Source: Rhizophagus irregularis (lineage: Eukaryota). Taken from it: a DNA stretch of 64,000 nucleotides. Of the stretch, positions 4,331 to 55,228 are shown one piece after another. The DNA is taken from positions 186,001-250,000 of the forward strand of contig NC_089435.1 of the NCBI RefSeq assembly GCF_026210795.1. Reading direction: 5' to 3'. The notes under the pieces are model-generated. The model ran no database searches. It was not told the DNA's origin and worked only from the letters and a program-made list of their open reading frames with translations. Each line of letters opens with the position of its first letter. The first letter of the stretch is position 1. The translations under genes and the position numbers were made by a program.

Positions 4331-5420
4331 AGTCGAGGTAGAAGCAGAGGTCAAAGACAGTTAAACGCGAATATGTTACTTTATTTGATTTAAATAATGT
4401 ATTATATTATTTTGTACGATAAATCCCGAAAGAAAGAATTTTTTTTTTGTATTGTATATGTATGAAATCGTCAGTCGCACAGATGATCTGATGATTAGCT
4501 AATCAGTTACGCGTGACAAGGCTTGGGAAGAAAATTGATAGTAGTAATGTGTGTAATATCTTTTATGAACCATTACAGGTAAGACAATATTTCGTTCCAT
4601 TTCTAAGCTTGGATTGAGGTTTTGCTAACATACTTATCATAGTTTTTGATAATTGCCATGGTTCAATTGGCTCATGTCCGGTTTCTTTTTCATATTTTTC
4701 GTACAAATCTTAACTGCAAAATAATATTCATTATTATGTAAAGATTACATATCATAATATTCCCTCGGACGTTACTTTTTTGGTATTTGTGTACGACTTA
4801 TACAGTATGTCTATATTAATAGTATTTCATGGACTCGTATTCAAACTATATAACAAATTAAGTATTTAATAAAAATCATGTGAATATTTTTTATTGATTA
4901 TTACTAGAAAAATCCATCATTTAATTATTGATCAGGCACTTACGTGACATTCAATCGAAAACAGCACGTTATTTCCTATTATACCGTAATTATTTAGAAA
5001 ATTATTTTAATTCAAAATCAACTATTTTAAAAACAAGATCTGCGCCTTTTTTGTAAACCTAATGATTGGGGTAATATTAGTTCTAGATAAATACTGTATG
5101 AAATTAAAGTTTTCCCAAATTATAATCCCCGATAACATGTAAAGATTATGTGTAACCCGGCAACTCATCTGTGAAACAAGTATTAATTAAATTAAGAATC
5201 ATAATTTATAATGAAAATGAAGTAAAAAAAGGAGGATGTCGATCTCAATGTGATTTTTACTATATACACAATATAGGATTTGATGAACATGAATGATTAT
5301 TATAAAAATGTAAAAAAAAATGTATATATATATATTACTAATATTTCATATTTCAAAAAAAAAATAAAAATAAAAATAAAAAAATAAAGAAGAGAAGAAA
5401 GAAAAAATTATAATTGAACG

Positions 5421-6722
5421 ATGTGGAATCTGCTTTTATTATTAATAACAATTGCTCTTTCTTCTTTGATACATCCCGTAAATTCAATATGTATGGATCA
5501 TGATCCAATAAATTTAAACAAGTTATTAATAGTAGATTGCGCACCTAAAGTACCTAAAGCACCTAAACAACAAAATAATAATAATAATAGTTTTCAATTA
5601 AATGATGAAAAATTATTTCAAATAAATTTTAATTGTCAAATAACAGATAATAATATGTGTAATAAAGTTGAAGACATATTTAATATGGCAGGGGATATTG
5701 TCACCTATGCTCTTGCGCTCAATACACCTATAATCGTTAATGCTAAATTTTACGTTATGGATCCAAAAGAATTAGGAGGGGCAACACCAACTAGATATAT
5801 TTCATTATTAGATGAAGATGATCAAGTAGAAAGATTTTATCCACAAGCATTGGTAAAACAATTACAATTAACATCACCTGTAACATTCTCATATTCAGAA
5901 TCAGATATAACAGCAGAATTTAATTCTTTGATAAATTGGCATTTTCCTGATGATAAAGGATCAATAAAAAAGGATCAATATGACATTTTATATACGATTC
6001 TACATGAAATTATTCATGGTTTAGGTTTTATATCAAGTTGGAGGGGTTTGGGTTTAGATACACCAGAAAAAGAATTAACTCCTTTTCTTGTAACTGGTTC
6101 AGATGATACTTCAATTACTTCATATGATATAGCAGAATCTCCATTTATTTTTCATGGATTTCGCGAAACTATATTTGATAAATTTATCATAATTAAGGAT
6201 AGTAATGGTATACAAACGAGATTATCATCATTCGCCAATGAATTAAATCAATTTAATACTAGTGCAAGTCAATTTATTGATTTTTATGATCAATTACAAA
6301 ATACTCCACAATATGAGGCAGCTAAAGATGTATTAATTTTTAGTACGACAAAAAATGATTTTATATTCATGCCTAAAGGTAGTAATAGTATTCCAGATGA
6401 TGGAATTATATTAGAAACGAAGATAAAACCTTATCAAGCGGGTTCTTCTATATCTCATGTAGATTCTATTATTTATAATATTGGTAATCCGGATTTTTTA
6501 ATGAGACGTGAAAGTATTTTAGGTGAATCACTTAATGATTTAGTTATTAAAAGTGGTAATATTACTGGAAGTGCTATCGGTCCAAAGTTACTTAATATCT
6601 TAAGTTCAATCGGATATAATTTAGCCGATAATCCGATTAAATCTTCTGCAACAAAACAATCGATAGTAGATTTTAATTTAATAATAACTTTATGCATAAT
6701 ATTTATAACATTGAACATCTAA
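5421..6722 (+). CDS. Secreted zinc metalloprotease-like paralog 1 (intronless, GPI-like C-terminal tail)
   Basis: 433 aa ORF with signal peptide, HEIIHGLGF (6003-6029), GSSISHVD...DFLM, GPKL...IGY, and hydrophobic C-terminus after SSA. Confidence 0.9.
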   Translation: MWNLLLLLITIALSSLIHPVNSICMDHDPINLNKLLIVDCAPKVPKAPKQQNNNNNSFQLNDEKLFQINFNCQITDNNMCNKVEDIFNMAGDIVTYALALNTPIIVNAKFYVMDPKELGGATPTRYISLLDEDDQVERFYPQALVKQLQLTSPVTFSYSESDITAEFNSLINWHFPDDKGSIKKDQYDILYTILHEIIHGLGFISSWRGLGLDTPEKELTPFLVTGSDDTSITSYDIAESPFIFHGFRETIFDKFIIIKDSNGIQTRLSSFANELNQFNTSASQFIDFYDQLQNTPQYEAAKDVLIFSTTKNDFIFMPKGSNSIPDDGIILETKIKPYQAGSSISHVDSIIYNIGNPDFLMRRESILGESLNDLVIKSGNITGSAIGPKLLNILSSIGYNLADNPIKSSATKQSIVDFNLIITLCIIFITLNI

Positions 6723-6906: not shown

Positions 6907-8428
6907 TTATAATAAATGAATTTTTATTAAACTCAATAAATTAATAATAAATATTACTTTGAAATTTGTTTTATAAGTTTTAATACCACCAGATTTTTCG
7001 TTACTTCCTTTACCATTATTTGTACTTGAGTCACCCGGTTCTATTGGTATACTCATAGTTGGATTAAAATCATTTCCATTTCCAATTATCGTGACACTTG
7101 GCTTATATGGGTTAGTATATTCTGGTGTGGAATATCTTATATGAATATTAAAAAAAAAAGAAAAAAAGATATTAGAAAAACGTGTAATAATTTTAATATC
7201 AACCCCCGTATTATCATGATTAAAATGCTTACCCCAATGTTTCCAATACTAGTTTTAGATTAGGTCCTATAATAGCATTATAACCTGCATTATTATTTCC
7301 ATTATGTGAAGTAATCAAACTATCTAAATTAGCTCCATGATCCGCTAAAAATTTCATAAGGAAATCACTCGTATTATTATATTTTTTAAAATCCACATGA
7401 CTTATGCTCGAACCTGTTTGATAAGGTTGTAATCTAGTCTCCAAAACAACTGATTCAATGGCTTTTGTAGTCCCTCTAGGTAAAAATCCCAATACATTCG
7501 GTGTAATAGAATAACTCATCATTTTTTCTGCTATTTTATATTGAGGTGAATTACGAAATTTTGTTACAAAATCTATATCATTTTCAAAAATTATACCAAC
7601 TTCTTTTTGAAATTTATTTATATCTCCTGTTAATGCTGATATTTTTTTTCCTGTTGGTATATGAATTAAATATCTATCAAATGCTGATTCTAAAAATCCA
7701 TTAAATTTAAATTGTTCTGATGGATCTTTACCAGTTATTAAAATTTCTGGTGTTAATGCTTTAGGTTGATCATTCATATAATCTTCCCATCCTGACGCAA
7801 ATCCTAATCCATGTACAATCTCATGTAAAACTACATATAAAAAATCCTGTTGATTACGTGTTATTGGAGGATCTCCTTCAAACCAAAAACTTGTTCCTCC
7901 AGCATTAAACAATGCCATTATATCGAAAGGTCCATATGAAGGATGTTGTTTAAATTGAAATTGTTTTACTAATGCTTGTGGATATAATCTAACTAATCCA
8001 TCATCATCTTGTAATGGAATCGTTCTAGCTGGTGTCGCTCCTCCTAATATTATAAGTCCATCTCCCTTTGGACATTCTCCTAACGAAGTACAAAAATCTA
8101 AGAAACTTGCATTTAATTGTATTGGTGTATTAATTAATAAAACAGATGATAATATTTTACCAGCTGTTTCAAATGCATTTTTCGCTTTATTACAAAGAAT
8201 ATCGTTTTTTATTCCACAATTGAATGTTAATACAATCATATTTTCATTATTTGGTTGTGTTAATTGTGATAATGAATCAAATTTAACGGAATTTTGTTGT
8301 AATGGGCATTCTACTGGTATCTTGTATGATTTTTTTAAAGGATTTGGGTAATCAAAACATTGTGATAATGTACCGAGAACATTTAAGGTTATTATTAATA
8401 AAATTATCATTAATAAACATATTTTCAT
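6907..8428 (-). CDS. Secreted zinc metalloprotease-like paralog 2 (2 exons, GPI-like tail)
   Basis: ATG at 8428 (MKICLL...). HEIVHGLGF, SSISHVD...DFLM. Intron after LG (GG|GTAAG); exon 2 (7135-6907) reads YSTPEYTNPYKP...KVIFIINLLSLIKIHLL*. Confidence 0.88.
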
Positions 8429-8910
8429 ATTTTTCAATGTCTGATTACTTTATGTATAAAAGGAAATGAGTGAATTATTATTATTATTTTTTTTTGTTTT
8501 TTTTTTAATGTCGAAGATAATGAAAGTATGGATAAATTGAAGAATTGAATAAAAGGAGTGAAAAGAATGAAAAAAAGAGAGGATGAAGAAGAAAAGGAAT
8601 GTCAGACAGTTAGACCAATAAAATATTAAATAATAATAATGTTAGTAACGATTCAATTAAACTTCCTTCTATTTGTAAAAGAAGTCGAGCTTGATTCGTG
8701 TTTGCTATGCATTTCATGGTCTTACAAAAAATAATAAAAATAATTAGATTATGAATTACCATTTCCATGCGTTTTTTTTTTTGATTGTTACCTATGTTAC
8801 CTTTGTGAAATCTTCAGAATTACACCAATTAATCTACAGAGCATTCTTGTGATCAATTAACATAATTATAACGATCAATTATGCGTCTCGATGATCCCTC
8901 TTGTATGGCA

Positions 8911-10259
8911 TCACACGTTTATCGAATATATTGGAGAAGGTTTATATGGAAGTGGATGATCTCTCGTAGCATAACTAATAAATAATAATAATAATAATAA
9001 TAATAAATTTTTTAACAAATTAAAGTTATATATGTACAATATATATGTACAAATCAATGTATTTACCCTAAAGTTTCCAAGATTAATTTTAATTGAGGAC
9101 CGATTGGACCACCAGAATAATCTCCACTTTTATCAAGTTGATATTGTATCGACCTTCCAGCAACAACACCAGGTCTCATTAAAAAATCTTTGGTTCTCGT
9201 GTATGTAGAAAATTGTAAATGATTTAAACTTGATCTTGAAAAAGGATTCAAACTTGTTTCTAACGTAATATTTTTTTTATCATGTGATTTAAATATAAGA
9301 GTACTCGGTTTACAAGCCAATTTATACAAATATTGAGCCACATAATATTCTGAAGATTCTTTAAAATAATTATATATTTCTTCATAAATTGAAAAGGTTT
9401 TTTTGGGAGAAAATTTTTGTAATTGAGGAGTGATTACATCTGACAGTCTCTCATTAGTAGATTTAAAATATATGTATTTATCAAAAACTTTTTCAATAAA
9501 TCCATTAAATATATAAAGATTTTCAATAGAATTATTATCATTTTTAATTATTAAATTATTTGATAAAATTTTTGGTGTTAAAGCTTTATGAATTTTATCA
9601 TTCCAGGCTGAAAGAAATCCTAATCCATGAATAAATTCATGAAGAACTACGTAAAGAAAATCAATTTGATTTTTTCCAATCGTTGAATTATCTTCAATAA
9701 ACCAATAATCTATTTTGGAATTAAATCTGGCTCTAATATCAAACTCTCCATATTCAGGATGTTGTTTGAAACGAAATTGTTTAACTAATGATTGTGGATA
9801 TAATCGATCAACTCCATCATCATCCCTTAATATTATTGATCTTGCAGGTCCCGCTGCTCCCATTATTCTACGAAATGGCGTATTTTTACATCGTTCTTTA
9901 TCCGTTTCACATAAATCTATGAATGTTGCATTCACATTTATTTTTGTATTAAGAATTAATGTCTCTGATATTATTTGTCCAGCTATTTCAAATGTTTTTT
10001 TGGCTTTATCACAAAGTACCAAATCCTTATTATCGCAATGAAATGTTATATTAAACATATTTTCATCATAATTTATAGGAGCTTTTTGAGAGGTTTGAGG
10101 GTCTTGTTGTGATGAATTGTTAGTATATGAACATGGTATTCGTTCTACGTGAAAATAATTAAACGGATCAGGATGTTCGTAACAAATTGCTTTTACAAAG
10201 TCAAATAAAATTATCACAAAAAATAGAAAGGAGAGATTGATATGTAAATGAAAGTTCAT
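8911..10259 (-). CDS. Secreted zinc metalloprotease-like paralog 3 (2 exons, no hydrophobic tail, likely soluble)
   Basis: Signal peptide, HEFIHGLGF, SSLNH...DFLM. Short exon 2 (8974-8911) reads YATRDHPLPYKPSPIYSINV*. Confidence 0.88.
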
Positions 10260-10792
10260 TATGTTTCATATTATCTCATATTATTACCAAAACCGAACCG
10301 AAGACTTTTATATTAAAAAGAAAAAAAAAGGCTGTGTTATTTAATAATAATAATCGGGATTTCCATTTGAGGCTAAACCAAAAATTCTGATTGGCTGAAA
10401 ATTTTATACTTTGTCATCAACCTGTCTCAAGCACATGGTCTAGACTTCAGGGGTGATAAAACAATATCAAAGTTTATTTTTTTTTATGCCTAATTGCCAA
10501 AATAAATAATTTTTCCGTTCTTTAATTACCCGGACATTCCTTCGAAATATTATTAATATAGCGGACTCTATATAGTTATTACATTTTAAGCAGCGATTAC
10601 GAGTTAAAAGTTATTTTGTTTTCCTTTTTTTTTTTTTAATCATTCTTAATCTTCTATCTCTTATGTAGAATCAGATAATCAATAATTTATCGAATAAATT
10701 TTAAGTTTGTTCTATAATAAATAATAGAAATTTAAAATAAATATAATAAACTGAATATCTTTCTTTAAAAAACCTCCGTAAAAATTGTAAAG

Positions 10793-12328: not shown

Positions 12329-13817
12329 ATGATGAATTCATTAAAATTCATAATATCTTTGATTTTTTTTGTCGTAATAATAATTTTTCCTAATAAAACT
12401 ATTTCAATAAAATGTTTTAATCATCCAGATTTTTTCGAATTTTATAAAAGAAATCCTATAAATTATGAATTTATTAAAAAAAGATCATTAAAAACAAAAA
12501 GAACGTCATTTAATAATAATAATAATAATTTTCAAATAGAATTCACATGTGGAATTGATGATAAAATACTTTGTGATAAAGCTAGAAAAGGGTTTGAATC
12601 TGCTGGTCAGATAATTACTTCAACTATATCATTTAGGAACCCTGTAATAGTTAATGCATCATTTTATAATTTTTGTAAAACCGATAATCAATGTTCTTCT
12701 AGTAATGATAATAATATGGTAGCTGGTAAGTAAATTAAAAATAAAAAATAAAAATAAAAATAAAAACAAATACTAATAAATATTAATAACTATTGTAGGT
12801 GGAGCAAATCCAACAAAAACGATAGCATTAACAGATAATGATGGAATTGTAAGATATTACCCACAAGCTTTGGTTAAACAATTACCATTTGAACGTTATC
12901 CAGATTTTGAACCTTTTGATATCTCAGCAAAATTTAATTCTGAAGTAAATTATTGGTTTGAAGGAGATAAATTACCAATAAAATCTGATCAAACGGATTT
13001 CATATTAATAATTTTACATGAATTTATTCATGGATTAGGATTTGTTTCTAGTTGGAATGATTTTTTTAATTTTGCAAATCCACAAGGATTGACTCCAGTT
13101 CCAAGCGCCGATAATTTGAATTCGGGAATGTCATTTAACGGCTTCATTGAAAATATATTTGATAAATATTTGATATTTTTACCTTCAGGGGAATATGTAT
13201 CAAATGTTGCCGCTAAAATTAATACAATAGTAAATGAAAAAGGAAAATTTTACCAAACTCCAGAGAATTTTATTACGACATTTAAATCTTCTTCTCAATA
13301 TCAACAATCGGAAATGATGTTAAAAGCTGCTACAACATCTTTTTCTTTAGGATTTTTACCTAATAACACGAATAATTTAAGCGAAGCAATTATACTTGAG
13401 ACCACATTAAATCCTTTTAGAACGGGATCAAGTCTCGGTCATTTTGATCTTAAAACTTATATGAATACCTCCGATTTTTTGATGACTTATATACAAGATC
13501 CAGGAATGACACTTGGTGATTATATGTCAATTAGTGGTAATTATACTGGTGGTCCAATTGGTCCAAAATTAAGACAAATTTTGGGGACAATGGGGTAAAT
13601 ATACGATTATATTCGTTATTATATATATATTATCATTATTATTATCAACGTTAATACTTTTTAATATTGTAGATATGTTATAAAAGATGTTTATATAAGT
13701 CCATATACACCCAGTGTATCTCTCAATAAATTTTCAACGGCCGCAACAATAAGTAGTAATATTGGTTTTATGATATTTATTTTTACAACAATCATAATTT
13801 TTAATATTTTAATATAA
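12329..13817 (+). CDS. Secreted zinc metalloprotease-like paralog 4 (3 exons, GPI-like tail)
   Basis: Exons 12329-12725, 12799-13594 and 13673-13817 join in frame at canonical GT-AG sites. HEFIHGLGF, SSLGH...DFLM, Kex2-like KKR/KR sites in the pro-region. Confidence 0.88.
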
Positions 13818-14496
13818 TCATGTAAGGGCATATAATATAACTTAATTTAGTAATTAGTAATTTAATGAATAGAAGAAGGCTTTGTATAATCACATGATTA
13901 TTGGCATTTGTGTAATAACCTTAAACCCTTAATTTATACATATTGTCATTTACCAAATTTCCTTTTTATGACTAATAGAATTAATCACTGTATACCTTGT
14001 TCGAATAAAGAAGTTTAGACAGATATTTTATATATTATTTTTATATTACAAATCATTAAATGACAAAGTCATGGTTGTCAGCCTTTTTGAATTTAAAAAT
14101 CTACAAGCTTTCATATGAAACAGCTTGTGTACCAGATTTATAATTTTAGTTTTTTTACGTTCGGCCGATCTTATAATGTGACGATGTGATTTAAGACATA
14201 ATATTTTTAGTCACTTTTTTATTTTTTATTTTTTTTTTTAGCTTCTCTCTTAAAAAATGTCATTAAATTTTCTTTACTTTATACATTCTTTTCGCTTCTT
14301 TTAACCTATTTGCGTTCGTTGTTTAATTCTTTGTTATTCAGTTACTATTTTTAACATACTAGCGTTCGCTTATTTTTTTATATAAATATCAACATTTTCG
14401 AAATATTATCCTCTCTTTTTTTTAGAAAAAAAAAAAATATATAAAAATTAATTTTAGATTGAATTATTGATTAATTCAAACCATTACTTTTAAACA

Positions 14497-16332
14497 ATGA
14501 AGGCTTTAACATTAACATTGTTGTTGTTATTATCTGTCACATGTTTAACATTGATCAAAGAAATAACAGCTCAATGTTATGATTATACGAATGCATTGGA
14601 TATAAGTGCAAGAACTCCAATAACATGTAATATTGTTGATAATATTAAAGAACCACCGCCACCAATAGCTTCACCACAGCCACCATCGTCATCACCGCCA
14701 CCATCATCATCGCCATCACTATTACCAACAGCTTCAATATCGCCACCAGTTTCATCACCTTTACCATCAGCTTCAATATCACCACCACCAACTTCACCAC
14801 TACCATCAGCTTCTGCTAACTTAACAACAAATAATTTTATAATTAATTATAAATGTGAAATTGAGACAAATCAAGAATTATGTACAAAGGCACAAAAGTC
14901 TATAGAAAAAGTTTGCGAATTGTTAAAATCAAATCTAAATTTAATTACAAATATTAAAGTTGACGTTACTTTAAGAAATTTATGTCCTACAGATGCTAAA
15001 CAACCATGTAATGAGTTAGGAGGAGCAACATTTGCCAGAACCATGGAATTATTAGATGATGATAATGTTATTAGAGAATATCCAACAACACTTGTAAAAC
15101 AATTTGATTGTGAACGACATTATGAATTTGGTGATGTTGATATACGCGCTATATTTAATGGAGGGAATGTTACTTCTTTATGGTTTGAAGGAGATCCACA
15201 AATTACAAAAGATCAAAAAGATTTTAGAATAATAGTTTTAAAAGAATTTATTAAAGCGTTGGGTGTACAAACAAGTTTAATAGAACAACCAATTTTTTTA
15301 AACGTAACTCCAAAAGTTTTAACACCACAATTAACTTTAACAGATAATGGTGGTGGTTTAGAATTTATGGGATTTAAAGAATACGCTTTTGATAAATATT
15401 TGGTATTTCGTGGTAAACAAGTTCAACCGGTTAATGAAAATATTAAATCACTTAATGATTTTGCTAAAGTACCAGATAATAAATTTAATGATCAACAAGA
15501 ATTTGTAACAAAATTCGTTCAATCACAACAAATCGGTGTAGCTCAAAATATGGCGAATCTTTCTGTTACTCAATTTACTTTAGGTTTTCAGCCAAGAGGA
15601 TCAAAATCCGATGATGATATTATTATTCTAGAAACTCTTTTAAACCCTTACCAAAATGGTGTTAATATTAATAATTTTGATGCTAGCGTATATGCTGCAA
15701 CAGATGACTTTTTGATGATTTCACCTATCACAAGTGGCAAAACTCTTGAAGATTCTATGGGGAAATTTCCAAGTCCACTTGGTCCTAAATTAATCTCCTT
15801 GTTGGAAACTTTAGGGTAAGTTAATATTTATCAAAACTCTTGCACGACAAACATTAAATAAATTAAATAAACTTATTTTTTTTTTTTGTAATAAAAAAAA
15901 ATTAGATATCCTACCAAACGATTGCCAAATAATAATTTCAAAGTTTGTAACATTCCTTCGCCTCCTTCATCACCTTCTCCATCAAAGACTGTAACGACTG
16001 CCGTAACGACTTCTGTTACGACTCAAATTACAACAACAGTTCCTGTGGTTGTTACAACGACAATTCAACAAGATAATACTAGTGTTGTTTCAACTCAAAC
16101 TCAAAATGTTGTAACAAAAGTTGAGTCCGTGTCTCAAAGTGTTGTTACAACAGTCGTAGTTGTAGACGCTCCACAGTCACAGCCAATTCCTTCCCCGACA
16201 AATTCCGATGACCCTTTTCAAGGAGGAATTTATTCTAGTGGCTCTTCATATAAAAATCAAAATAATTTTAGTTCAATAATATTTATTATTCTAATTGTAT
16301 GTATAATAGGAAGTTTTCAAAGTATTATATAG
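14497..16332 (+). CDS. Catalytically dead metalloprotease paralog 5 with Pro/Ser-rich insert, Thr/Val/Ser-rich stalk and GPI-like tail
   Basis: Exons 14497-15815 and 15906-16332 are in frame. HExxH is replaced by KEFIKALGV (15241-15267) and SHxD by NNFD; DFLM and GPKL...LGY are retained. Confidence 0.88.
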
Positions 16333-16854
16333 ATCGATCATTTTATTAGATATTCATTTTACATTCTACTTACTTAATATGTATTAATTTTTAAAAAGAT
16401 ATTTAATTTTGGTAATTTTTAATCCGGAGATTGAATTTCAAAACCTTAGAAAATTCTTATAAAAATAAAGATGCAAATGTATTATAATACGTAACATGTG
16501 GCGGGACAATAATTTTTTAAAATTTCCTATTTTAATTCGTCACAATTATAAACAAAATTACAAAAAAATTACTGAATAAAGAAATATAATGAATTTACGC
16601 TAAACCACAACTATTCATGTCTTGTCTCCAAAAAAAGGTAGTTAAAAATTCATTCATTATGATATTTCTATAATAGATTGTATCATCAAAGATTTCAACT
16701 TCGAAATTCTATGAAAAGAATTTTTCGTATTTATGACATTAATTGACTTTTCATGTGATAAAATTCAAGTATAAAAACTCGAGAAAAAAATTCTCTTGAA
16801 ATTTTAATTTTGCTTTTTGAATTTTGAAATAATTTAAAGTATCTATTATTCAAA

Positions 16855-17459
16855 ATGAACAAAATTATTGGTATCACCCTTTTTCTTTTCTTCATTTTTT
16901 CATCTTATATCTCGGCAGTTCCAAATCCTATGATAAAACGTCAGGGGGACGGTAGCGATCCATTAAGTGGTTTCAAACCTTGTAATGGAACTACTTATCC
17001 AATTACTTTTACGAAGTTCAGTTTCGACCCAAATCCGATCGTAATAGGACAGACCTTAACTACGACAGTGGCCGGTACAAGCAATGAAGAAATAAAAGAA
17101 GGCGCAATTCAAACAACATCAGCATTTTCTAACGGACAATTAGTATTTAACCAACAAACTGATTATTGTAAAGTGTCAGTTGAACCAACCGGAGCAAAAT
17201 GTCCACTTCCACCTGGAGATTTTGATGCTTCTATAACATCCGTTCCCGCGGCTAGTTCCAATGATCCTTCAGGCACTACTTTATCATTTGATGTTGTATT
17301 TAAAAGTAAGAATAACTTATAAATTTATATTTATTCGATTTAAGATAAATGAATTGATTTTAATATATATATATATATTTTTCTTTAGTTATTAATCCTG
17401 ATAATACCGAATTGACATGCATGGAAGGACCATTTAGTATTACTTTCCCTCCAAAATAA
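16855..17459 (+). CDS. Secreted ML-domain (MD-2/NPC2-like) lipid-binding protein
   Basis: Signal peptide plus KR site; GFKPC...FDPNPIVIGQ...DYC...CPLPPG. Exon 2 (17389-17459) supplies the last Cys (LTCMEG). Confidence 0.85.
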
Positions 17460-18588
17460 TTGACGATATGATGTAATTTATAAACATTTTATTATCCGAT
17501 ATTTATAGAATAATTATCCGATGATCTAATATTATAAATATATATTATACACACAATTAATTTCTTTTTTTTCACTTTATTATTGTTATGAAATATGAGT
17601 AGCAAATTATTTTATGACAATGAAATTATTTTTAGTATTATAATTATTTTTAAATAAAGTTGTCTTCTAAAACTTATACATTTGTTATCTGATATACCCC
17701 ATATTTGAAAATTTCTTGGCGGATAGTAAGATATTCTCGAAATAAGAAAGACAAAAAAAAAAAAAAAAATATAAATATTTCCGACTGAAAATTTTCTTGG
17801 CACATAAAGAACGAAACAATCCAATCTATATATAGTTTAAATGTGATACAATAAACAATACAGTTAAGGGATATTAGAAACACGTATTAAAGTTTTGATT
17901 TTTAATATATGGGTTTTCAGGATGCATAATAATATATCTTGGCATACTTTTTACCACGTGATATGAAACAAATAATTTCTTTTTTCTCTGAATTTCTTAA
18001 ATTGATTAATTAATTTAACAAAAAAATCATAAAAGGGCAAGGCCCTCTCGTTGTTAATAATATTTTTATAAACAAAGTTTGTTGAAACGTATCCACATAT
18101 AGATTACAAGGGTAAATTAAAACTGCGGAATTTATTAGTATTACCAAAAAAGGATAAAAATAAATTAAAAAATTAATCACAAATCGAATTGTACTCGGTA
18201 AAACTCGTTTAGTGGAACAATACTGAAACATTTTTTTTTTTGAAAAAATAAATAAATAGATATTGATCCTAGTGTAGATATAATTTTTCTTTTTAATCAC
18301 TTTTTATTTATTTATATATTTTTTTTTTTCTTTATCTTTTATAAGATCGATTATATATATAAATAAATATATAAATACATATTCTTTTTTGTCAAAAATT
18401 TTTTTTTGGCAAATAACTCTCGTTTTTCTATTATTATAATTTCCTTGACGGAAATCATATATTAATAACAGAACTTCTGGTAAGCTCTGTTTCCCCTTTC
18501 CCATCCCTCCTCCTTTTAATTTTTTATATCATTTTAATACCACTTAAAGCATAAAACACCAGAACAAAGCAGCAACAAAATAAAAATC

Positions 18589-20010
18589 ATGAAACCATCA
18601 TCATTTTCATTTATTCTTTCACTCTTGCTATTTATTAGCATCGAATCTATGATTCAAGTAAATGCTATGTGTTGGGAACATAGCAATCCACTTAAACCAT
18701 GGGAGAAAACGAAGTCAACATTTTGTGGTACGCAAGATAAGCCAAAAAACAAATTAACAATCGATAAAGGAAATTCGCTAGCTTCCTTTTTAGCACCAGC
18801 TGATGCATTTCAATTTGTTTTCTCTTGTGGAGTTCCAGATCAAGTTTTATGTAGTAAAGCAGAAAATTCATTTAAAGAAGCAGGATTAATTATAGCAAAT
18901 TTAGTTAATTTCACTACACCTTTAAGAGTTAATGCTACTTTTACAGATTTTTGTCGAGACCTTGGTGAATGTGATGGTAAAATTCTTGGAGCAGCAAGTG
19001 CAGCGAGAACAATTCCTTTACAAGATGATGATAATAAAATTAGACAATATCCACAAGCATTAGCAAAACAATTTTTATTACAACCAGAACCTCAATGGGG
19101 ACCTTTTGATATTCAAGCTTTTTTTAACGCTGAAGCTGATTTGTTTTTTGATGGTGATAATACACCAATTACACCTACTCAATTTGATTTTCGTTATATT
19201 ATTTTACATGAACTTATTCATGGTCTTGGTTTTGCTTCCGGTTGGAATAGTTATTTCAGTAGTGATAATGGTAATAATGCTGTTGCTTTGACTCCTGATC
19301 CAGGTTTTCTCGAGCAATTAACAGGTTTAAATGATCCTGTGACTTTTACTGGATTTGAAGAAACTGCATTTGATAAATATATGGTAAATGCAAAAATAAA
19401 AACTCAATCTCCGAAAAGAATGACTGATTATGCGGATAAAATAAATAGTTTTGCTAAAATTGGTACTAAATTCCCAAGTGTACAGGCTTTATTAACATCA
19501 TTTCAAAGATCTCAATCATTTTTAACTTCTAATGATTTAATCATTGATAGTCAAACTCCAAAAACTTTTGCTTTTCAACCTAAAAGTGCTAAAACCACAG
19601 ATGATTTAATTTTTTTGGAAACGAATATAAATCCTTTCCAACAAGGATCATCTATTTCTCACGTAGATATTGTATCTTTTAATAATAATAGTGATTTCTT
19701 GGAAGTTTTTAATGCTAAACGTGGTCAAAACTTGGATCAAATTCTTGCTAGTGTTGGTGGAACTTACCCTATTGGTCCAAAATTACAATCCGTTTTAGAA
19801 ACTTTAGGGTATACTACGGCAAACAATCCAAATCCATATAAACCAAGTTTACCTAATAGTCCAAAATTGAATGCTGCTCCCCCACCTCCATTACCTGTCG
19901 CTAATCAAAGTGGTAAAAATAAAATGTCAACTTCCACCGCTACATCTTTAAAATTTAGATTTAATATTTTACCTGTATTTATAATTGTAGTCGTTGTTTT
20001 ATTATTATAG
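18589..20010 (+). CDS. Secreted zinc metalloprotease-like paralog 6 (intronless, Pro-rich linker, GPI-like tail)
   Basis: 473 aa ORF. HELIHGLGF and GSSISHVD are present, but DFLE replaces DFLM. Hydrophobic C-terminus. Confidence 0.9.
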   Translation: MKPSSFSFILSLLLFISIESMIQVNAMCWEHSNPLKPWEKTKSTFCGTQDKPKNKLTIDKGNSLASFLAPADAFQFVFSCGVPDQVLCSKAENSFKEAGLIIANLVNFTTPLRVNATFTDFCRDLGECDGKILGAASAARTIPLQDDDNKIRQYPQALAKQFLLQPEPQWGPFDIQAFFNAEADLFFDGDNTPITPTQFDFRYIILHELIHGLGFASGWNSYFSSDNGNNAVALTPDPGFLEQLTGLNDPVTFTGFEETAFDKYMVNAKIKTQSPKRMTDYADKINSFAKIGTKFPSVQALLTSFQRSQSFLTSNDLIIDSQTPKTFAFQPKSAKTTDDLIFLETNINPFQQGSSISHVDIVSFNNNSDFLEVFNAKRGQNLDQILASVGGTYPIGPKLQSVLETLGYTTANNPNPYKPSLPNSPKLNAAPPPPLPVANQSGKNKMSTSTATSLKFRFNILPVFIIVVVVLLL

Positions 20011-22685: not shown

Positions 22686-24344
22686 TTAAATAAATGATGA
22701 CGTAAACTTACGATTAAGTAAATAATTAGAGAAATACCACATTATAGGAACTAATGGTACAATAAAATACCAAATTTGAGTCAATTCAAATACGCTATTT
22801 AATTTCATTGGTACAGTTCTTGGCGATTCATATCCTGTAAATCGTCCTTTTGTGTAAAATTCTTCCATCAACGCATCCTTCTCTATCCATCTTTGTCTTA
22901 GCCATTCTGTAAATTTATCCTCATCTTCGGGCATTTCTGAAATTGCATATTTTCGAATATGTAAATGTATATTACGTGGATATTGTCCTTCAAAATAAAT
23001 TTTTCTTAATGTATATATTTCTTCTGGAAATTGTCCTCTCCTCACTCCTTCTATCCCTATAGTTAAATCATATACATAATCAACGGATTTATGTAATGAT
23101 CCAGCACAAAAATGCAATCCTGTTGATCGTGGCAATAATACATGTTCATGATCCACCTAAAAAAGATGATCGAGAATAATTTAATCTAAATATATATATA
23201 TATACATTAAATTTATATTATCGACATACATACCAATCCAACTTTATCTGCATATTTTTTTGACGTTATACGCGTCACATCAGATACTACTGTTCCCTCT
23301 GGAAATATAAGCAACCATAAAGGTTCTTTGGAAGTAGCTAGAGTCGATAATGTCTTTGAAAACGGGCCTTTATCAGTTGCCCAATTTCGTTTCAAAAAAA
23401 TGTATTGGAAAAATTGCATACCCTAATTAAATAAGATATTATATTCGGTTCCGGTTTAGAAAATATAAACATATATATATTAAAATTTTTGTGTATATTA
23501 TTGTATACAACATATCATAAATAAATATTCAAAGAATATCAAATTAGTCAAAATTCTTACCCTATAAGTAATAAAAAAATGAATTAGTAATTGGATATAC
23601 AATCAATAATGCCAAAAGAACTGACAAAAACTTACCATCCAAATATCGGTAACCATTTTAGGGAATCTTTTAATATAATCTTAATTGCACCATGAGCATT
23701 AGCTAAATACGTAAAGCACCTAATATAGTAAAAATTGATAAAACACGCGCTTTGGGTCGAACCTTATGATAAATCAGTCGTTAATTCAACTGTATTGTGA
23801 GAAATAAGCTTACCACACGTATAACCAATCAGCGTATATCTATAAATGAGTTTATTAGTCTCAATTTAAATGACCACCTTGTATATTACTAATAGTATTT
23901 CTTACTTGATGATTTGCTATTAATATAAGTCTTTCGGGCATATCCAGTTCTACTTTAGCTCCGTTCCAACTTTGCTTTAAAACACCTTTGGCAGATTTAT
24001 CTACTGTGATAACAAAGTTGCTAGGAGCAAAGAACTGATTGATGGCAACCAATAAAATACCAAAACATCTTTGGGTATGTTTAATATAGCTTTGATAATA
24101 GGAATGCGAGAATGGCCAAAGCAAAAGACTAAGAAATTGAGAAAAGTTGAGCGCAGCTGACTGGCCAGCTAGAAAAAACGCGATTTGTATTATATTCAGA
24201 CTCAGGAGTAAGATAACGATGGTAGACTAAAACATAACGAGTAAGAGAAAGATTTTGATACTTACCAAAGAACACAACGAAAACAGCTGTGCGCACGAGC
24301 CACTGTACAAGATTTTGCGACTGCGGTTCCCCTAAAGCAGGCAT
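22686..24344 (-). CDS. PlsC-family lysophospholipid acyltransferase (LCLAT1/Cst26-like), multi-exon
   Basis: Motifs NHQ|IYADW, LKDSLKWLPIFGWGMQFF, FLKRNW, FPEGT, LLPRSTG, VYDLTI. ATG at 24344. The frame requires a 1-nt exon at 23561. Confidence 0.9.
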
Positions 24345-25139
24345 TTTTATAATCTCCAAAACAATAAGACGACCGTTAAACAAAAACAAGGTAAAAAAAT
24401 CTTTAGGGGAATAGAAAAAGAAAATTCTACTCTTACATAGGGCAAATACTGTGAAAAAAAGGAGGATGCATTATTTATATTTATAGTCATCAATTTTTTT
24501 AAGGTTTCTTAACAATAATAAGAGTGACACTTGTTAAACTCATGACCCCGTGAGGACGCATGGACGCAGGTCATGCGGATTGTTTACGTTATATAGAAAA
24601 TTGGCACTTCACTGTCACACTTTAATCCTAAATAAACCTGCAAATATATCAACAAATGATGATTATACACGATTTACACTTTCATTTTTGCACCCGATTC
24701 CCATAGCCATTTGAGGCTGTATTTGGTGTATCTATGGTCCATTTTGCTGCGGTTTACATAAAATTTTATAGGTTTAACTCTGATATGGTATTACCAAATG
24801 TACGTTGACGGGAGATACCAAAATTAACCCTCTGGACATTATGAATGATGGAATGAATTATCCAGTAAAAGATTTTTTTTATTCATGACTCATTAGTTTT
24901 ATATACATAAAAAATAATAAAAAAGCATAGAAACCTGGAATATAGCAAGATTTGATTTTGATTTTAACTTAACCAAGTTAAAACATTCGGTATGAATATA
25001 ATTAGAAAATCATTACTAATTTAGAAATTATATAAAGTATTAAGTTTATTACGCCCCATCATATTCTTCCGAAGAATGTATAAATAAGTGATCATCTTTT
25101 CTTTTTTTTTCCTTTTTTTGTTTTGATTTATTATCTAAA

Positions 25140-26567
25140 ATGAACATTCATTTACTGCTAATAATATTAATAACGTTCTTACTAATTTTTATAAATGATG
25201 TTTCCTCCGATCATGCATTATGTTGGGATTTGATTCCAGAACCGAATAATTTGTCACGTAAAATTCAGAGACCATGTCCAATGGTTAAAAATAGGAAAAG
25301 AGCAGCATCAACAGCAGCACCGGCAAATAATTCGGATATGTTTACCGTATCATTTACTTGTTCGGTTGAAAATGAAAACCCAGAATTATGTCGAAAAGTT
25401 AAGAATGCGTTTTATACAGCTGGACAAATTATTTCTTCCAGCATAAAACTTAATACACCATTGATAGTTAATGCTTCATTGGTAAATTTTTGTACAACAA
25501 GAGGTATATGCCTAGATGGACCAACTGGTCGTTTAACTTTAGGTGGTGCTGGACCTTCAAGACTTATTCCTATTGAAAAAGATCAACGAGTATATCCTCA
25601 ATCCATCTTAAAACAATTAAACAAAGAAAATCACCCAGAATATTCTCCATATGATATTAATGCTCTATTTAATAGTGAAGGAAATTATTGGTTTGAAGAA
25701 GATGGTCCAATAAAGCTAAATCAATCTGATTTTTTATTTGTAATTTTACATGAATTAATTCATGGATTAGGGTTTTGCAGTGGTTGGGATGATCATAGTG
25801 ATATGTTAGGCATACAGAATATAATAACTCCAACACCTCTTTTTTTAACAACCATTACAGGACAGGTCATTTTTGGTGGATTTAGAGAGTTCATATTTGA
25901 TAAATTTATGGTATTATTATCTGATGGCACTCGCATTTCCAATCTTACTGAGGAGTTGAATAAATTCTCTGGTGTTGGAACTACTCATAATTCAATGGAT
26001 GATTTTTTAAATTACTTTATGAATACTTTTCCTTCATCTCCTGAATACCAAATTGTTCAAAAAATGATGAATATATCTACTACACCTAAATCTCTGGGGA
26101 TTTTACCATTAAATAAAACTGATATTAAAGATGCTTTTATTTTAGAAACTTCACTTTCACCTTTTTTGCCCAAGTCAAGTATCAGCCATTGTGATTATAT
26201 AACTTATACCAAATCTTCTGATTTCTTAATGAGATATTTACAAGATCCTGGTATTTCTTTAAAAAGATCTATTCGTTTAGGTGGAAATTATGTAAATGGT
26301 CCTATTGGGCCTAAACTAGCTGAAACATTATCTTTAATAGGGTAAGTATTTGTTTAAATTATTATAAAAGAATATTTAATGTTTTTTAAAAATAAATATT
26401 TTTTTTTTAGATATCAAATTCAAAATTTACCAAATACATTTAAACCAAATCCTAATGAAATAGTAGTAGATGATGAAATTAATATTGCATCATCTTTAAA
26501 AGCTTTTAACTTAAATTATTTAATTATAAAATTTTTATTTTTTTATTATATAATGATGGACTTTTAA
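25140..26567 (+). CDS. Secreted zinc metalloprotease-like paralog 7 (2 exons, GPI-like tail)
   Basis: Exons 25140-26341 and 26411-26567. Signal peptide, RKR site, HELIHGLGF, SSISHCD...DFLM. Confidence 0.9.
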
Positions 26568-28762: not shown

Positions 28763-31745
28763 AAATAATTACTAAAGTACTAAATAATGAAAATTTAACT
28801 CCATGCGTTGTAATTGATATGTTAGATGGTAAAATTCAGCGGTGCAATTCTAAAAAAAAATTGAGACGACTTTGGCAAATGATTGGAACTTGGCAAATTG
28901 ACGATGAAGAAGTTAAAGCAAAAAATTTTTTAATTGAAGATTTAGGTATTTGTTATTCGCATTTTTTATATGATCAAAATCAATTGCATTCATCAAATTT
29001 AAAACAAACTAAAGATTATATGGAAAGTATTATTCATAGACGCAGATGTTTATTTTGTAATAAAAATAAAATTTTTTTTAGTCATGGTTCTAATTGTGAA
29101 AAACACTTATATAAAGTTATAGGTAAAAATATTCAGGTACCTTGTATAGAGCAAATGAAATGTGGTGCATTGCAAATATACCATTCTTTTATTTGTAATT
29201 CCAACAAATTCAAGTAAACATGCACGATATATATGTATGAATTGTTATGAAGAAAAGGATGGGCATATTTATCAATGTGTTGGATAAGGTATAAAAAAAG
29301 ATCCAAATTGTGATAACCTGTTACATCATAAAAATGATACCAAAAAGGCATTAGAAGTAATTGGATATTGGATTTTTAATATTGCTAATTCTGATAATTT
29401 AGCATTTCAAGAAAAAATTTTAGCACATTTAGCTCCTATTTTATGTATTATTAATATTCAAGAAAAATCTGAAACTACATCATCAATGCTACTATCAGTA
29501 CAAAATATAAAAAATGAAGTACCTTCTTTATTTATAATTCTTATTATTCTTATTTTAGTAAAATTTAATTACAATTTTGATAAAAAATTAAATTCTAAGA
29601 ATCTTACATCAAAACATTTTTTCGAATTTGGAGAAGCATTAGCACATTCAATAATACTCGTGAAAAATGAATTAAAAATTCACAAAAAATTACTTGAATC
29701 ACCTACTTCTATAAAAGAATATCGTTTTATATTTCCTTTATATTTAGTACAATTTTATGATGGTCTTTTAAAAACTTTATATGAAACAAAAAAAAAATTA
29801 TAGATAGACAAAGAAAATATCGTAAAAAACCATTAAAATTTTTAAATTATGAAAAAATTACTAAACAAACCACATTTTTTATTTCAATAATTTTAAACAT
29901 TGCATTTAAAGGATGGAAAATTTGGTTACCTTGAACAATGGCAAGTCTTTGCCGAAAACTAAAACTTTTGTCATCATTGCAGGGAATTTTAGAAGTTGTA
30001 AATATTACAAGCCACTTTCAAAGACATAAACAAAATTTGGAAAAAATTCGTGCTCTCTTAGTAGATCCAACTGATCGAATTTGCTATGAAAAGAATATTT
30101 GGAATCTTGGTATTATTGATAATGTGGATTTTAAAGAAACTACATTTGGTTATGGAAACATTTTTGACGCTATTAGAGAAAATGCTACATTACGGATACT
30201 CTTTCAATACCAACTACCTAATGAATTATCTGAAATTATTGAAATACAAGACAAAAATAAGCAAAAACTTTTTGGGCAAAATAATTTTTCACAACAAACA
30301 TTCAATATTTTTAATTCAGTTTTTGAACAATTACTTACGTTTAATGAAAATCTCACTCCTAATTATCGTTCAGATTTTAATGAAAATGATATACGTAATC
30401 AAATTATGACACATTTTGAAGGAAGTTTTAATCTTCCGCCTCCCAATGTTATAATTCTTGATGCTGAAAATCCACCATCAAGTGATTCCGCCGTGCATAA
30501 ATATCTAGAAATGTATAAAAATGAAATTGGTATGGAAAATAATGAATATATTAATGTAGTTGCAGATGAAGCTATTTTTAGACGAGGTATTAGTTATTGT
30601 AAAACAAATCAAAAAACAAAAATGATCCTTGGACAATGGCATACCAATAAGGATATGATGATGGCATTAATTACAATTTTTTCTGGTTACGGAATATTCA
30701 ATATGGCAGGAATATTAGGTGTATGATTTCTAGATAAATTAAAGAAAGGTGTAAATTTCAGAGCAACTTCAAGAATATTGGAATTGATTTGGATTTCCAT
30801 AGAATAGCAATTCATATATATGTAAAAAAGAAAAAACAGACATTAGATAATATTTTAAAAGAAGAAAATAATTGTGTAAAAGTTTGGTATTTATATTTTC
30901 AATGGGCTAGTTATTGGCGTGCACATTGGTTTGGTATTAGATGGGAATATTTGATTTACAACATGAAAGTTTAAAAGCTTTTTCACCTTTATTTTCCATT
31001 GCCGGTAAATCAAATTATGCTAGATCTGTAAGACTGTAACATATCATATATATTGCATAGAAAATAATCCTCTACTTCGTAAAATGCTTCGTACAGCACC
31101 ATCCATTAATTTAACAAGTCCTGGACATTTTTTTGCATATGACGAAGCATTAGAAACATTTGGAGTAAAATTTGTAAAACAAAATGTAATAAGAATTCCT
31201 GCAGATAGGGAAGAGTTGAAATTAAGAATAAAAGCTACTCAACTAGAAAAGGAACGAACAGAAATGCTGATTTGTGATTACATTGGAGATTCTGTTCAAA
31301 GTTTCTGACCACGTAATGTTCAAACTCAAAAGGAAAAGATTTGGGAGCTTGCACACTTATTGATAAATGCTTTTGAATCTTTAAATCCTCTTAAAAATTC
31401 AGTATTTGAATTCTGTAACAATTTAAATGATGATAGAGTTAACCAATTAATTATTGCGTATGATATTGGAATTAAGAGATTACAAACAATAGCAAATCAA
31501 GAAATTTTTTTAACAGAAAGTTATACAACTATTGGAAGAAGAGCAAGAAATATCACACGGGTTACAGTTGCTGATATTACTAAAATGAAAAAAGAAAAAA
31601 AATAGAAATAAGAGAAAAAGAAAAAGAAAAAAGGAAAAAAGGAGAGGGAGAGGGAGAGGAAGGGGGAAAGGGAGAGGGAGAGGTAGGAGGGGGAGGGAAG
31701 AGGGAGGGGAAGGGGAAGGGGAAAGAAGAAGAAACATGACTATGA
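28763..31745 (+). mobile_element. Degraded Academ/DUF6589-like transposase relic
   Basis: Collinear broken ORFs with IIDNVDF, VADEAIF, LGQWH and FSIAGKSNYARSV, Cys/His clusters at the N-terminus and a GA-rich (RG-encoding) 3' tract. Many stops and frameshifts. Confidence 0.55.
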
Positions 31746-53189: not shown

Positions 53190-55228
53190 TTATTTTGCAC
53201 TAATACTAATAGTAATAACTTCGCCATTCTGAATATTTGCACCTTTAATAGGACTTACTAAAATAGAATTTCCATTTTTTTTCCATTCAACTTTACCATT
53301 CGGGGAAATATTTATAATAAACCCATTTGGGTAATGATATATTTCTTGAATTTTTATAACAGTAGGTTTTTTTATAGATGGATTGATTTCATAAACTAAT
53401 TTAAATTCTTCATCAAATTCCATACTAAGAGTATTTCCTGAAACTGCTTCGGCATAAGTTCTAGAAAATATTTTTGCAACATCTGGCCTTACTTGTCCAG
53501 TATTGGGATCAATTAAACCATCACCAGGTAATTGTCTTGTTAATGGAAAAAAATCCTTGTATTGCCATCCTATCCACGATTGTAAGTATTTATCAGCTGC
53601 TTGTATAATTGTAAGCAACCCTGGAAGATTTTTCCCACTATCATAAGCTGCTTCAAATTCTGTTAGCTAATATAAGGTGGAAACCAAATTTAAAAAAATC
53701 ATTACTAAATTACGCAAAGAAACTATTGAGTTTAATTTACCATTGATGCACCACCAGTTCGTCCAATATCTTCTAAATGAACTTGAAAATCCATATTAGG
53801 TGGCTTTATTCTAACTTCTTTATAATAATGATAACCAAATGAACTTCTATTTTGATAAATAGGACCTCCTGGTACATGATCAAAGTTATTACCGAACAAA
53901 TCCCACGTTACTCCTGTAAAGAATACAATTCCATTATTATCAACTTTGCGCAATTCGGCACTAATTGCATCCCAAAATGGACCTAAATTTGTACGTGTAT
54001 TTACTTTGAAATAAATTAATGTTGGTTAGCATTTTAAATAAGGAAGATATTATTGAATTCTTTGGAACAAGTCTTACCACTTGGTAACCAAAGACCAAGA
54101 TTACTATAGGTATCTCCGGGCCAAGGCTCATTAAGTAAATCATAACCAAGAAGATTGTTACTATTCTTAAATATTGATGCAATTTTTGCCCATTGAGCTG
54201 CAAATGCGTCTCTTAAACCATCATAATTATCATATAATCTCTGCCATGCCACATTTACTGCACGTGAGAGATACAATAATGCCCAATTCACTCTTCCACA
54301 AGTTACTTTATCTGGAAGTCCTGTTATAGGATCATATATTGCTGCTGTTAGTCCTATAGGTATCGGAAACGGCCATGTACCTTCTGTTCGAACTGCCCAT
54401 CTTGGAAACTACAAATTTAAGGGTTTAACCAAATGAAAAGATCGTTTCTTCGTATGCATATTAATTACTTACACCTTCTCCACAAAACTTATCGCTCATT
54501 ACATCCTAAATTAATAACCAATAAAAAAAAATTTATTAAATTTTTTTTTAAAAAAATTAAAAAGACAAAAGGGTTTGTTTACCTGATGAGAATCTAATAG
54601 CACGTAAATTCCATACAAATTACACTTGTCTACAATACTTTTTATGATTTTTAAATAAGTTTCATTATATTTTCCTCGTACTGGTTCAACGCCAGCCCAT
54701 AGAACTCCAAGTCTAATAACATTCATATTAACACTGGCCAAAATCTAGTCGCAGAGTATGTTTTTGTTTAGGAAGTGATCAAACTGTTTTGGACATAAGC
54801 ATAAGCATGTACGGTATTAAAAAAAGGTCAAACCTTCATATCTTCTTCGGTGAACGAAGTTACAGGATCAAATGCATCAATTCTAGGATAGTATGGGAAT
54901 CCTTTATAAACCTTTCAACAAAACCAAATAAGTATCGAAAAAAAATATTCTAAACATTTTCTTTGATGAAGAATATACTAGTATATTGTTTTATATAACT
55001 TTTTTTCTTTGGATATCATAATGGTGAAGGGTCTTTACATACAACGTTCAGTCCACGAAAGAATCTCTGTCTACCGAATTCATCAATATAATGATCATTT
55101 TTAATTCCGATAATCTTTGGCGTGGGTTCCGATGTAGCACGTGTATCTAAGTTTGGAATAGCGATCACATGATATATGTATATTACAGAAAGTAATAAAA
55201 CTAAATGCACTTTTCGTCTAATTATCAT
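53190..55228 (-). CDS. Secreted GH5 endoglycoceramidase-like glycosidase (7 exons)
   Basis: Exons join in frame: DEFGRQRFFRGLNVVYK, NVIRLGVLWAGVEP, LLDSHQD, CGEGFPRW, GYDLLNEPW (acid/base Glu), YHYY, LTEF (nucleophile), FSRTYAEAVSG. Hydrophobic N-terminus. Confidence 0.88.

What the first reader, a model, noticed from the sequence alone, without database searches (positions are those of the whole stretch)
23423..23635. Apparent single-nucleotide exon (G at 23561) in the acyltransferase gene
On the minus strand the upstream exon ends ...TTT GGA TG|GTAAGT (donor 23635) and the downstream exon begins TAG|GGT ATG CAA (23422). Direct joining frameshifts the conserved PIFGWGMQFF motif by one base. 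Between them lies TTATAG|G|GTAAGA: a canonical acceptor preceded by a TACTAAT branch point, one G, then a canonical donor. Two introns (74 and 138 nt) around a 1-nt exon restore the TGG (Trp) codon. One-nucleotide exons are very rare and most gene predictors miss them; skipping could act as an on/off switch.
Basis: seen in the sequence. Interest (0 to 1): 0.8.

Follow-up and report, generated by a model that had tools for sequence, protein, structure and literature searches.

The report
One-base exon in mycorrhizal fungus gene
A lipid-enzyme gene of the root-symbiotic fungus Rhizophagus irregularis makes a message with exactly one base more than its two large neighbouring exons supply, and that base very likely comes from a single G standing alone between two ordinary introns; such exons are rare but already known, and this one is likely shared with distant mould lineages.

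Summary
The feature is real. On the minus strand a branch-point motif, AG, one G (23561) and GTAAGA split a 213-nt gap into GT-AG introns of 74 and 138 nt. RNA contigs from 5 of 5 runs (4 studies) skip 212 nt, not 213. Three runs with unspliced contigs match the window exactly, so there is no assembly error. The G completes Trp151 of a 370-aa R. irregularis acyltransferase (PF01553 + PF16076); skipping it would stop the protein at 160 aa. No skipped form was seen, so the on/off switch is unsupported. No intermediate was seen either, so the origin of the G is inferred. Public models break at this codon in 34 of 40 Glomeromycotina and 29 of 30 Mortierellomycotina proteins. How they break implies the same one-base gap in Mortierellaceae and Mucorales, but no orthologous genomic DNA was obtained. 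One-base exons are published for plant APC11 and VPS55 and Fusarium CYP621A, and this scan has noted several in other fungal genes, none in this one. New member of a known kind.

The parts
24266..24344 (-). Exon 1 (ATG at 24344) of the 370-aa lysophospholipid acyltransferase gene
   Evidence: (joint 24168/24266 in 4 of 4 RNA runs)
23906..24168 (-). Exon 2, ends in NHQ of acyltransferase motif I
23814..23839 (-). Exon 3 (26 nt)
23636..23719 (-). Exon 4, ends in the first two bases (TG) of the Trp151 codon
23562..23635 (-). Intron A, 74 nt, GTAAGT...TAG, phase 2; removal inferred
   Evidence: used as an intron by 5 public R. irregularis models that read W-V-R-I
23583..23589 (-). Branch-point motif TACTAAT of intron A
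   Evidence: Sequence
23561..23561 (-). One-nucleotide exon (G), third base of Trp151
   Evidence: mRNA has exactly one extra G in 5 of 5 RNA runs
23423..23560 (-). Intron B, 138 nt, GTAAGA...TAG, phase 0; no CTRAY near its 3' end; removal inferred
23234..23422 (-). Exon 6, starts GMQFF, carries FLKR and FPEGT motifs
22686..23156 (-). Exon 7 (coding part to the stop codon), Acyltransf_C domain

Best explanation
The mature message of this acyltransferase gene carries one G more than exons 4 and 6 supply, and that G is very likely G23561, a likely constitutive one-base exon released when the two short flanking introns are removed one after the other. Shown: the canonical signals, the genomic sequence, the extra base in mRNA and the frame requirement. 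Inferred: each intron is recognised across itself (intron definition), as proposed for Arabidopsis APC11; either order leaves a canonical site (TGG|GTAAGA after intron A, TAG|G after intron B). Intron A likely goes first (about 60:40, weak), because it has the ideal donor and the clear branch point while intron B lacks CTRAY near its end; this would also suppress skipping. The exon has no evident role beyond keeping the frame: it supplies the third base of Trp151 between motif I and the FLKR/FPEGT motifs. The same two intron positions, one base apart, likely exist in other Glomeromycotina, Mortierellaceae and Mucorales (inferred from gene models).
For: Signals and frame. Chance 1e-4 in shuffles and unique in the window. 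mRNA: joint 23422/23635 'skips 212' in X15, X16, X19, X20 and X17, 4 studies; the aligner can only explain it as one intron with non-canonical ends, while the other four joints of the gene are GT-AG. X15 holds the whole spliced CDS in one 1270-nt contig with 1 mismatch. DNA: X12, X5, X14 show 0 differences over 23100-24000. The other introns of the gene are 66-97 nt, so 74 + 138 fits better than 212. cDNA-like loci L001 and L002 of relatives read W-G directly. X16 holds a contig with intron 23720-23813 retained but this gap already spliced, so the step is not slow. Orthologs: 15 of 15 models that jump from this codon into the next exon land right after an Arg (5 landing sites in 4 clusters), which a canonical AG allows only from a phase-2 donor; NHQ^GM and WIP^GM joins (24 models) and a genomic ORF reading YQ-GM show a phase-0 acceptor; W-V/L-V read-through (20 models) shows a phase-0 donor after the completed codon.
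Against: No intermediate with only one intron removed was seen; only assembled contigs were available. The base is a G in a run of G, so mRNA alone cannot say which genomic G it is. No genomic DNA of any ortholog with introns here was recovered: 80 of 80 metagenome loci kept (of 404 relatives) are contiguous at the junction. Conservation rests on protein models whose codons and exon coordinates I could not see; 6 of 40 Glomeromycotina, 1 of 30 Mortierellomycotina and 19 of 34 Mucoromycotina models are intact, and model counts are not independent. One search warns that the near-identical DNA runs may be this window's source.
Confidence: 0.9

Rival explanations
1. One non-canonical 212-nt intron (TA...AG or GT...TA) is removed in a single step and the extra G comes from an edge of the gap.
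For: The read aligner reports exactly this joint (ends CT..TA on the + strand) in 5 of 5 RNA runs; the mRNA product is the same.
Against: TA ends fit neither U2 nor U12 introns (established knowledge); the other four joints of the gene are GT-AG; it leaves the internal branch point + TAG-G-GTAAGA unexplained (1e-4 by chance); models of 7 other Glomeromycotina species read W-V-R/S as if the same internal donor exists.
Confidence: 0.04
2. The exon is real but regulated: skipping it, or retaining intron B, switches the enzyme off through a premature stop and likely nonsense-mediated decay.
For: Skipping gives a 160-aa product without the FPEGT motif. Plant VPS55 has forms with and without its 1-nt exon (PMC8831610, passages). 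Five R. irregularis models retain intron B, though these are predictions.
Against: 0 of 5 RNA runs from 4 studies show a 213-nt skip or cover intron B. Contigs drop rare variants, so this limits only abundant isoforms.
Confidence: 0.1
3. A G is inserted into the message by RNA editing or polymerase slippage after removal of a single 213-nt intron.
For: The product would be the same; the junction is a run of G.
Against: No G-insertion editing of fungal nuclear mRNA is known to me (recalled); all contigs show exactly +1; the internal splice signals would be coincidence.
Confidence: 0.01
4. The assembly lost a base at an exon edge and the gene has one ordinary intron.
For: A one-base frameshift at a G run is a common assembly error (general knowledge).
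Against: 3 of 3 runs with unspliced contigs, from 3 studies, match the window with no gap; public models from many R. irregularis assemblies read the same intron-B peptide W-V-R-I-L-T-N-L.
Confidence: 0.01

Closest known systems
One-nucleotide exon of Fusarium CYP621A P450 genes (Nelson and Syed 2026, PMC12940212; parts 1 and 2 of 3 read)
   Same: Fungal; a single G in AGGGT; lies in a conserved motif; needed for frame; supported by spliced reads, not by intermediates; missed by gene models; gap about twice a normal intron.
   Different: There it is the middle base of a Gly codon and is reported within one genus; here it is the third base of a Trp codon in an acyltransferase of an early-diverging fungus, and is inferred to span three subphyla.
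Arabidopsis APC11 single-nucleotide exon (Guo and Liu 2015, PMC4674806; parts 1 and 2 of 3 read)
   Same: Constitutive, frame-essential, between two GT-AG introns; authors propose stepwise removal by intron definition.
   Different: Base is A and was proven by substitution and deletion in protoplasts; here the base is G and no such test exists.
Plant VPS55 and APC11 1-nt microexon clusters (Yu et al. 2022, PMC8831610; passages)
   Same: Old, conserved 1-nt exons missing from reference annotations.
   Different: VPS55 has alternative forms with and without the exon; none seen here. 'acyltransferase' occurs 0 times in that paper's main text.
[D1,2]/[A2,3] stwintrons (Fekete et al. 2017, PMC5587772; abstract)
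   Same: Fungal two-step removal of short introns around one G; yields intron positions one base apart.
   Different: There the G is shared by two overlapping introns and is not exonic; here the introns do not overlap and the G stays in the mRNA.
AGPAT-type lysophospholipid acyltransferases (PF01553 + PF16076); yeast Cst26/Psi1 and animal LCLAT1 as likely relatives (recalled, not tested)
   Same: Both Pfam domains above cut-off; NHQxxxD and FPEGT motifs present; one JGI member is named lysocardiolipin and lysophospholipid acyltransferase.
   Different: Substrate untested; no solved relative at E<=0.01; no NCBIfam model reaches its cut-off.

Membership tests
Single-nucleotide spliceosomal exon (APC11 / VPS55 / CYP621A type) | One base directly between a canonical acceptor AG and a canonical donor GT | tested here: met
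   TAG-G-GTAAGA at 23564-23555
Single-nucleotide spliceosomal exon (APC11 / VPS55 / CYP621A type) | Both flanking introns complete and of ordinary size | tested here: met
   74 and 138 nt, GT-AG; branch motif clear in intron A, not in B
Single-nucleotide spliceosomal exon (APC11 / VPS55 / CYP621A type) | Mature mRNA holds exactly that one extra base | tested here: met
   212-nt skip in 5 of 5 RNA runs, 4 studies
Single-nucleotide spliceosomal exon (APC11 / VPS55 / CYP621A type) | Genomic sequence correct at both exon edges | tested here: met
   3 of 3 unspliced contigs identical over 23100-24000
Single-nucleotide spliceosomal exon (APC11 / VPS55 / CYP621A type) | cDNA base follows a change of the genomic base | not testable with these tools
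   Needs a minigene, as in PMC4674806
Single-nucleotide spliceosomal exon (APC11 / VPS55 / CYP621A type) | Intermediates with one intron removed | tested here: inconclusive
   None in contigs of 5 RNA runs; contigs drop rare forms
Single-nucleotide spliceosomal exon (APC11 / VPS55 / CYP621A type) | AG-N-GT conserved in orthologous genes | tested here: inconclusive
   No genomic ortholog with introns here among 80 loci; indirect support from gene models
Alternatively spliced (regulated) microexon | Skipped or retained isoform present in RNA | tested here: inconclusive
   0 of 5 RNA runs; only abundant forms visible
Stwintron [D1,2]/[A2,3] or zero-base recursive site | Internal intron interrupts a splice signal, or AG abuts GT, and no base between enters the mRNA | tested here: not met
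   A base lies between AG and GT and the mRNA gains one base
AGPAT-type lysophospholipid acyltransferase | PF01553 plus PF16076 above curated cut-offs | tested here: met
   70.9 bits (cut-off 23) and 61.2 bits (26.5) for P0045
AGPAT-type lysophospholipid acyltransferase | Acyl-CoA transfer to a defined lysophospholipid | not testable with these tools
   Needs an assay

The most novel reading that the evidence does not exclude
This one-base exon was already present in the common ancestor of arbuscular mycorrhizal fungi, Mortierellaceae and Mucorales (lineages dated to about 640-810 million years in one preprint) and has been kept ever since, which would make it one of the oldest one-base exons known and the reason most public models of this enzyme in these fungi are broken or split.
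Probability: 0.65. Interest if true: 0.55.

Novelty: new member of a known kind. Interest (0 to 1): 0.42.

Why it matters
It adds an RNA-supported one-base exon from an early-diverging fungus to a short published list (plant APC11 and VPS55, Fusarium CYP621A). It corrects a lipid gene in a fungus that lives on host lipids (10.1101/2020.01.13.901264, abstract start): 10 of 14 public R. irregularis models are broken, and the RefSeq proteins XP_065993035.1 and XP_065993036.1 are two halves of this one gene. If the inferred phylum-wide conservation holds, it gives many natural variants for asking how the spliceosome handles touching splice sites and how two introns come to lie one base apart.

Tried and rejected
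No whole genome is held for this window. The one metagenome scan returned 80 of 404 relatives; 2 are cDNA-like (L001, L002) and 78 have 42-59% GC and 48-56% identity, probably Dikarya (not assigned); all 80 are contiguous at the junction, so DNA-level conservation was not tested. Mucoromycotina was first used as a negative control (13 of 16 intact); with further cluster members it fell to 19 of 34 and showed the same phase-2 signature, so that control and its Fisher tests were dropped. One search counted P0174 as intact in error; one search corrects this (6 of 40); one search's pattern missed intact P0102 (seen); P0234, P0236, P0237 are other proteins and were left out. Three other TAGGGTAAG sites in the window are not one-base exons: two end long open frames as ordinary donors, one is antisense to an open frame. 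X12, guessed to be RNA, gave only an unspliced contig and was treated as DNA. The representative-protein search never ran. No solved structure matched; no fold was predicted because it does not bear on the splice question. PMC10234402 (passages) does not contain the tag OCT59, so I could not tie the split RefSeq models to its method. PMC10629195 (term search) does not name this subfamily; PMC7138796 (passages) describes abutting donors, not one-base exons. Paper searches listed no report of this exon; two searches were swamped by taxon papers, supplements were not read, and subscription journals are not in the library.

Full report
Observation. On the minus strand exon 4 ends in GGA TG at 23636, a GTAAGT donor follows, TACTAAT lies at 23589-23583, AG at 23563-23562, one G at 23561, a GTAAGA donor from 23560, and the acceptor ends at 23423 before GGT ATG CAA. 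This divides the 213-nt gap into GT-AG introns of 74 and 138 nt; the gene's other four introns are 66-97 nt. In 20,000 dinucleotide shuffles of the gap, branch point + YAG-N-GTRWG arose twice; of 8 YAG-N-GTRWG matches in the window only this one has a CTRAY upstream.

The gene. With the G, seven exons (24344-22686) translate to a protein identical to public R. irregularis protein P0045 at 369 of 369 residues compared. P0045 scores above the cut-off for PF01553 and PF16076, so it is an AGPAT-type lysophospholipid acyltransferase; yeast Cst26/Psi1 and animal LCLAT1 are its likely relatives (recalled; seen as a listing only). The G is the third base of Trp151. Without it the frame stops after 160 aa, before the FLKR and FPEGT motifs.

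RNA and DNA evidence. Of 24 runs listed, 6 are on record as RNA holders; I laid 5 of them and 3 others. All 5 RNA runs, from 4 studies, join 23635 to 23422, that is, they skip 212 nt and keep one G more than a direct join. The aligner can only call this one intron with TA at one end, while the gene's other four joints are GT-AG. X15 holds the whole spliced coding sequence in one contig with 1 mismatch. X12, X5 and X14 (3 studies) give unspliced contigs identical to the window over 23100-24000, which removes the assembly-error reading, with the tool's caveat that near-identical runs may be the window's source. No run shows the 213-nt skip or a one-intron intermediate; contigs drop rare forms, so neither is excluded. 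One X16 contig keeps the upstream intron 23720-23813 while this gap is already spliced. Two cDNA-like metagenome loci of relatives also read W-G directly.

Mechanism. Shown: signals, genomic sequence, one extra G in mRNA, frame requirement. Inferred: the two introns are removed one after the other by intron definition, as Guo and Liu proposed for APC11 (PMC4674806). Either order regenerates a canonical site. Intron A has the ideal donor and the clear branch point and intron B has no CTRAY near its end, so A likely goes first; this is weak. Because the base is a G among G, only intermediates or a substitution can prove which G enters the message. A single intron with TA at one end, G insertion and a stwintron were weighed and are unlikely: the first two leave the internal signals unexplained, and in a stwintron the shared G is not exonic (PMC5587772, abstract).

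Conservation, indirect. No orthologous genomic DNA with introns at this place was recovered: all 80 loci kept from the metagenome scan are contiguous there. Public protein models give an indirect view. The junction is intact in 6 of 40 Glomeromycotina, 1 of 30 Mortierellomycotina, 19 of 34 Mucoromycotina and 15 of 17 Zoopagomycota models (with P0102), and in 54 of 55 models grouped as Dikarya (2 of them bear no taxon name). These counts are not independent: 14 are R. irregularis and split halves count apart. By my tally 17 of 18 Glomeromycotina species have at least one broken model. A control position, the exon 6/7 junction, is intact in 26 of 30 covered Glomeromycotina and 28 of 28 Mortierellomycotina models.

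The kind of break is informative. (a) 20 models read X-V after the completed codon, as five R. irregularis models do when they run into intron B (W-V-R-I in R. clarus and Funneliformis, W-V-S in Gigaspora, Geosiphon, Podila, Mortierella; L-V in Mucor; W-V in Basidiobolus): a phase-0 donor. (b) 24 models join NHQ or WIP to G-M, and a Rhizopus genomic ORF reads Y-Q-G-M: a phase-0 acceptor. (c) W-stop (Entrophospora, Podila clonocystis), W-Y-V (Dentiscutata) and G-C (Mortierella alpina, Linnemannia hyalina) are what a phase-2 donor gives; the window's own donor reads W-stop. (d) 15 of 15 models that jump from this codon into the next exon land just after an Arg, at 5 sites in 4 clusters, where Arg is 3-4 of the next 40 residues. 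A canonical AG can give that only as AG|R after a phase-2 donor, and genomic ORFs P0179 and P0222 show no intron at those sites in the Linnemannia and Rhizopus clusters. Transcript-like proteins read W-G with nothing between (P0182, P0190, P0059, P0205). A phase-2 donor with a phase-0 acceptor and adjacent residues needs exactly one base between. This pairing is seen within Podila verticillata, P. clonocystis, M. alpina, Entrophospora sp., Dentiscutata and the Rhizopus microsporus cluster. I could not see codons or exon coordinates, so this stays an inference (about 0.65 for all three subphyla). Basidiobolus shows only the phase-0 sign.

Comparison and novelty. One-base nuclear exons are published for Arabidopsis APC11 (PMC4674806, proven by substitution), plant VPS55 (PMC8831610, passages) and Fusarium CYP621A (PMC12940212, also a G in AGGGT, described there as the first fungal case). 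Seven paper searches listed no report of this exon, within the limits of the library. The scan's own notes list several one-base exons in other fungal genes (unchecked) and none in this gene or its relatives. Four intact R. irregularis models exist, so the correct protein is public; whether they record the one-base exon I could not see.

Verdict. A real, RNA-supported one-base exon, very likely constitutive; new member of a known kind. The on/off-switch idea has no support here. The added value lies in its likely great age and in the broken annotation of this enzyme across early-diverging fungi. Interest 0.42.

Noticed in passing
window 23720-23813 (-): Intron 3 is retained in one X16 RNA contig (depth 4) but spliced in X15, X17, X19, X20; it has no CTRAY near its 3' end but an internal GACTGAT followed by AAG-GTTCGA.
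   Followed up: no
window 23543-23549 (-): Intron B has a branch-point-like GACTAAT close behind its donor, 121 nt from its end, and none near the acceptor.
   Followed up: no
window 22686-24344 (-): RefSeq proteins XP_065993035.1 and XP_065993036.1 (adjacent locus tags) are the two halves of this gene; R. clarus and Diversispora epigaea models are split the same way.
   Followed up: partly
window 14494-15819 (+) and 25092-26345 (+): Two long open frames (441 and 417 aa) without Pfam match end alike (G-P-K-L...G, then a GTAAGT donor); possibly paralogues.
   Followed up: no
window 5418-6722, 7229-8449, 9063-10265, 12780-13598, 18538-20010, 29935-30726: Further open frames of 263-490 aa with no Pfam family at E<=0.01.
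   Followed up: no
window 16828-17322 (+) and 53190-53666 (-): An ML (lipid-binding) domain exon and a glycoside hydrolase family 5 C-terminal domain exon.
   Followed up: no
window 23607 and 23207 (run X19): Loose contig ends inside intron A and intron 6 that run on into unrelated sequence; probably chance matches of AT-rich DNA, unresolved.
   Followed up: no
public Mucorales models (P0067, P0073, P0100, P0102 and others): The residue at the Trp151 position varies (T, M, Q, L, W), and all of these have codons that can end in G, as a one-G exon or a G|GT donor would require.
   Followed up: partly
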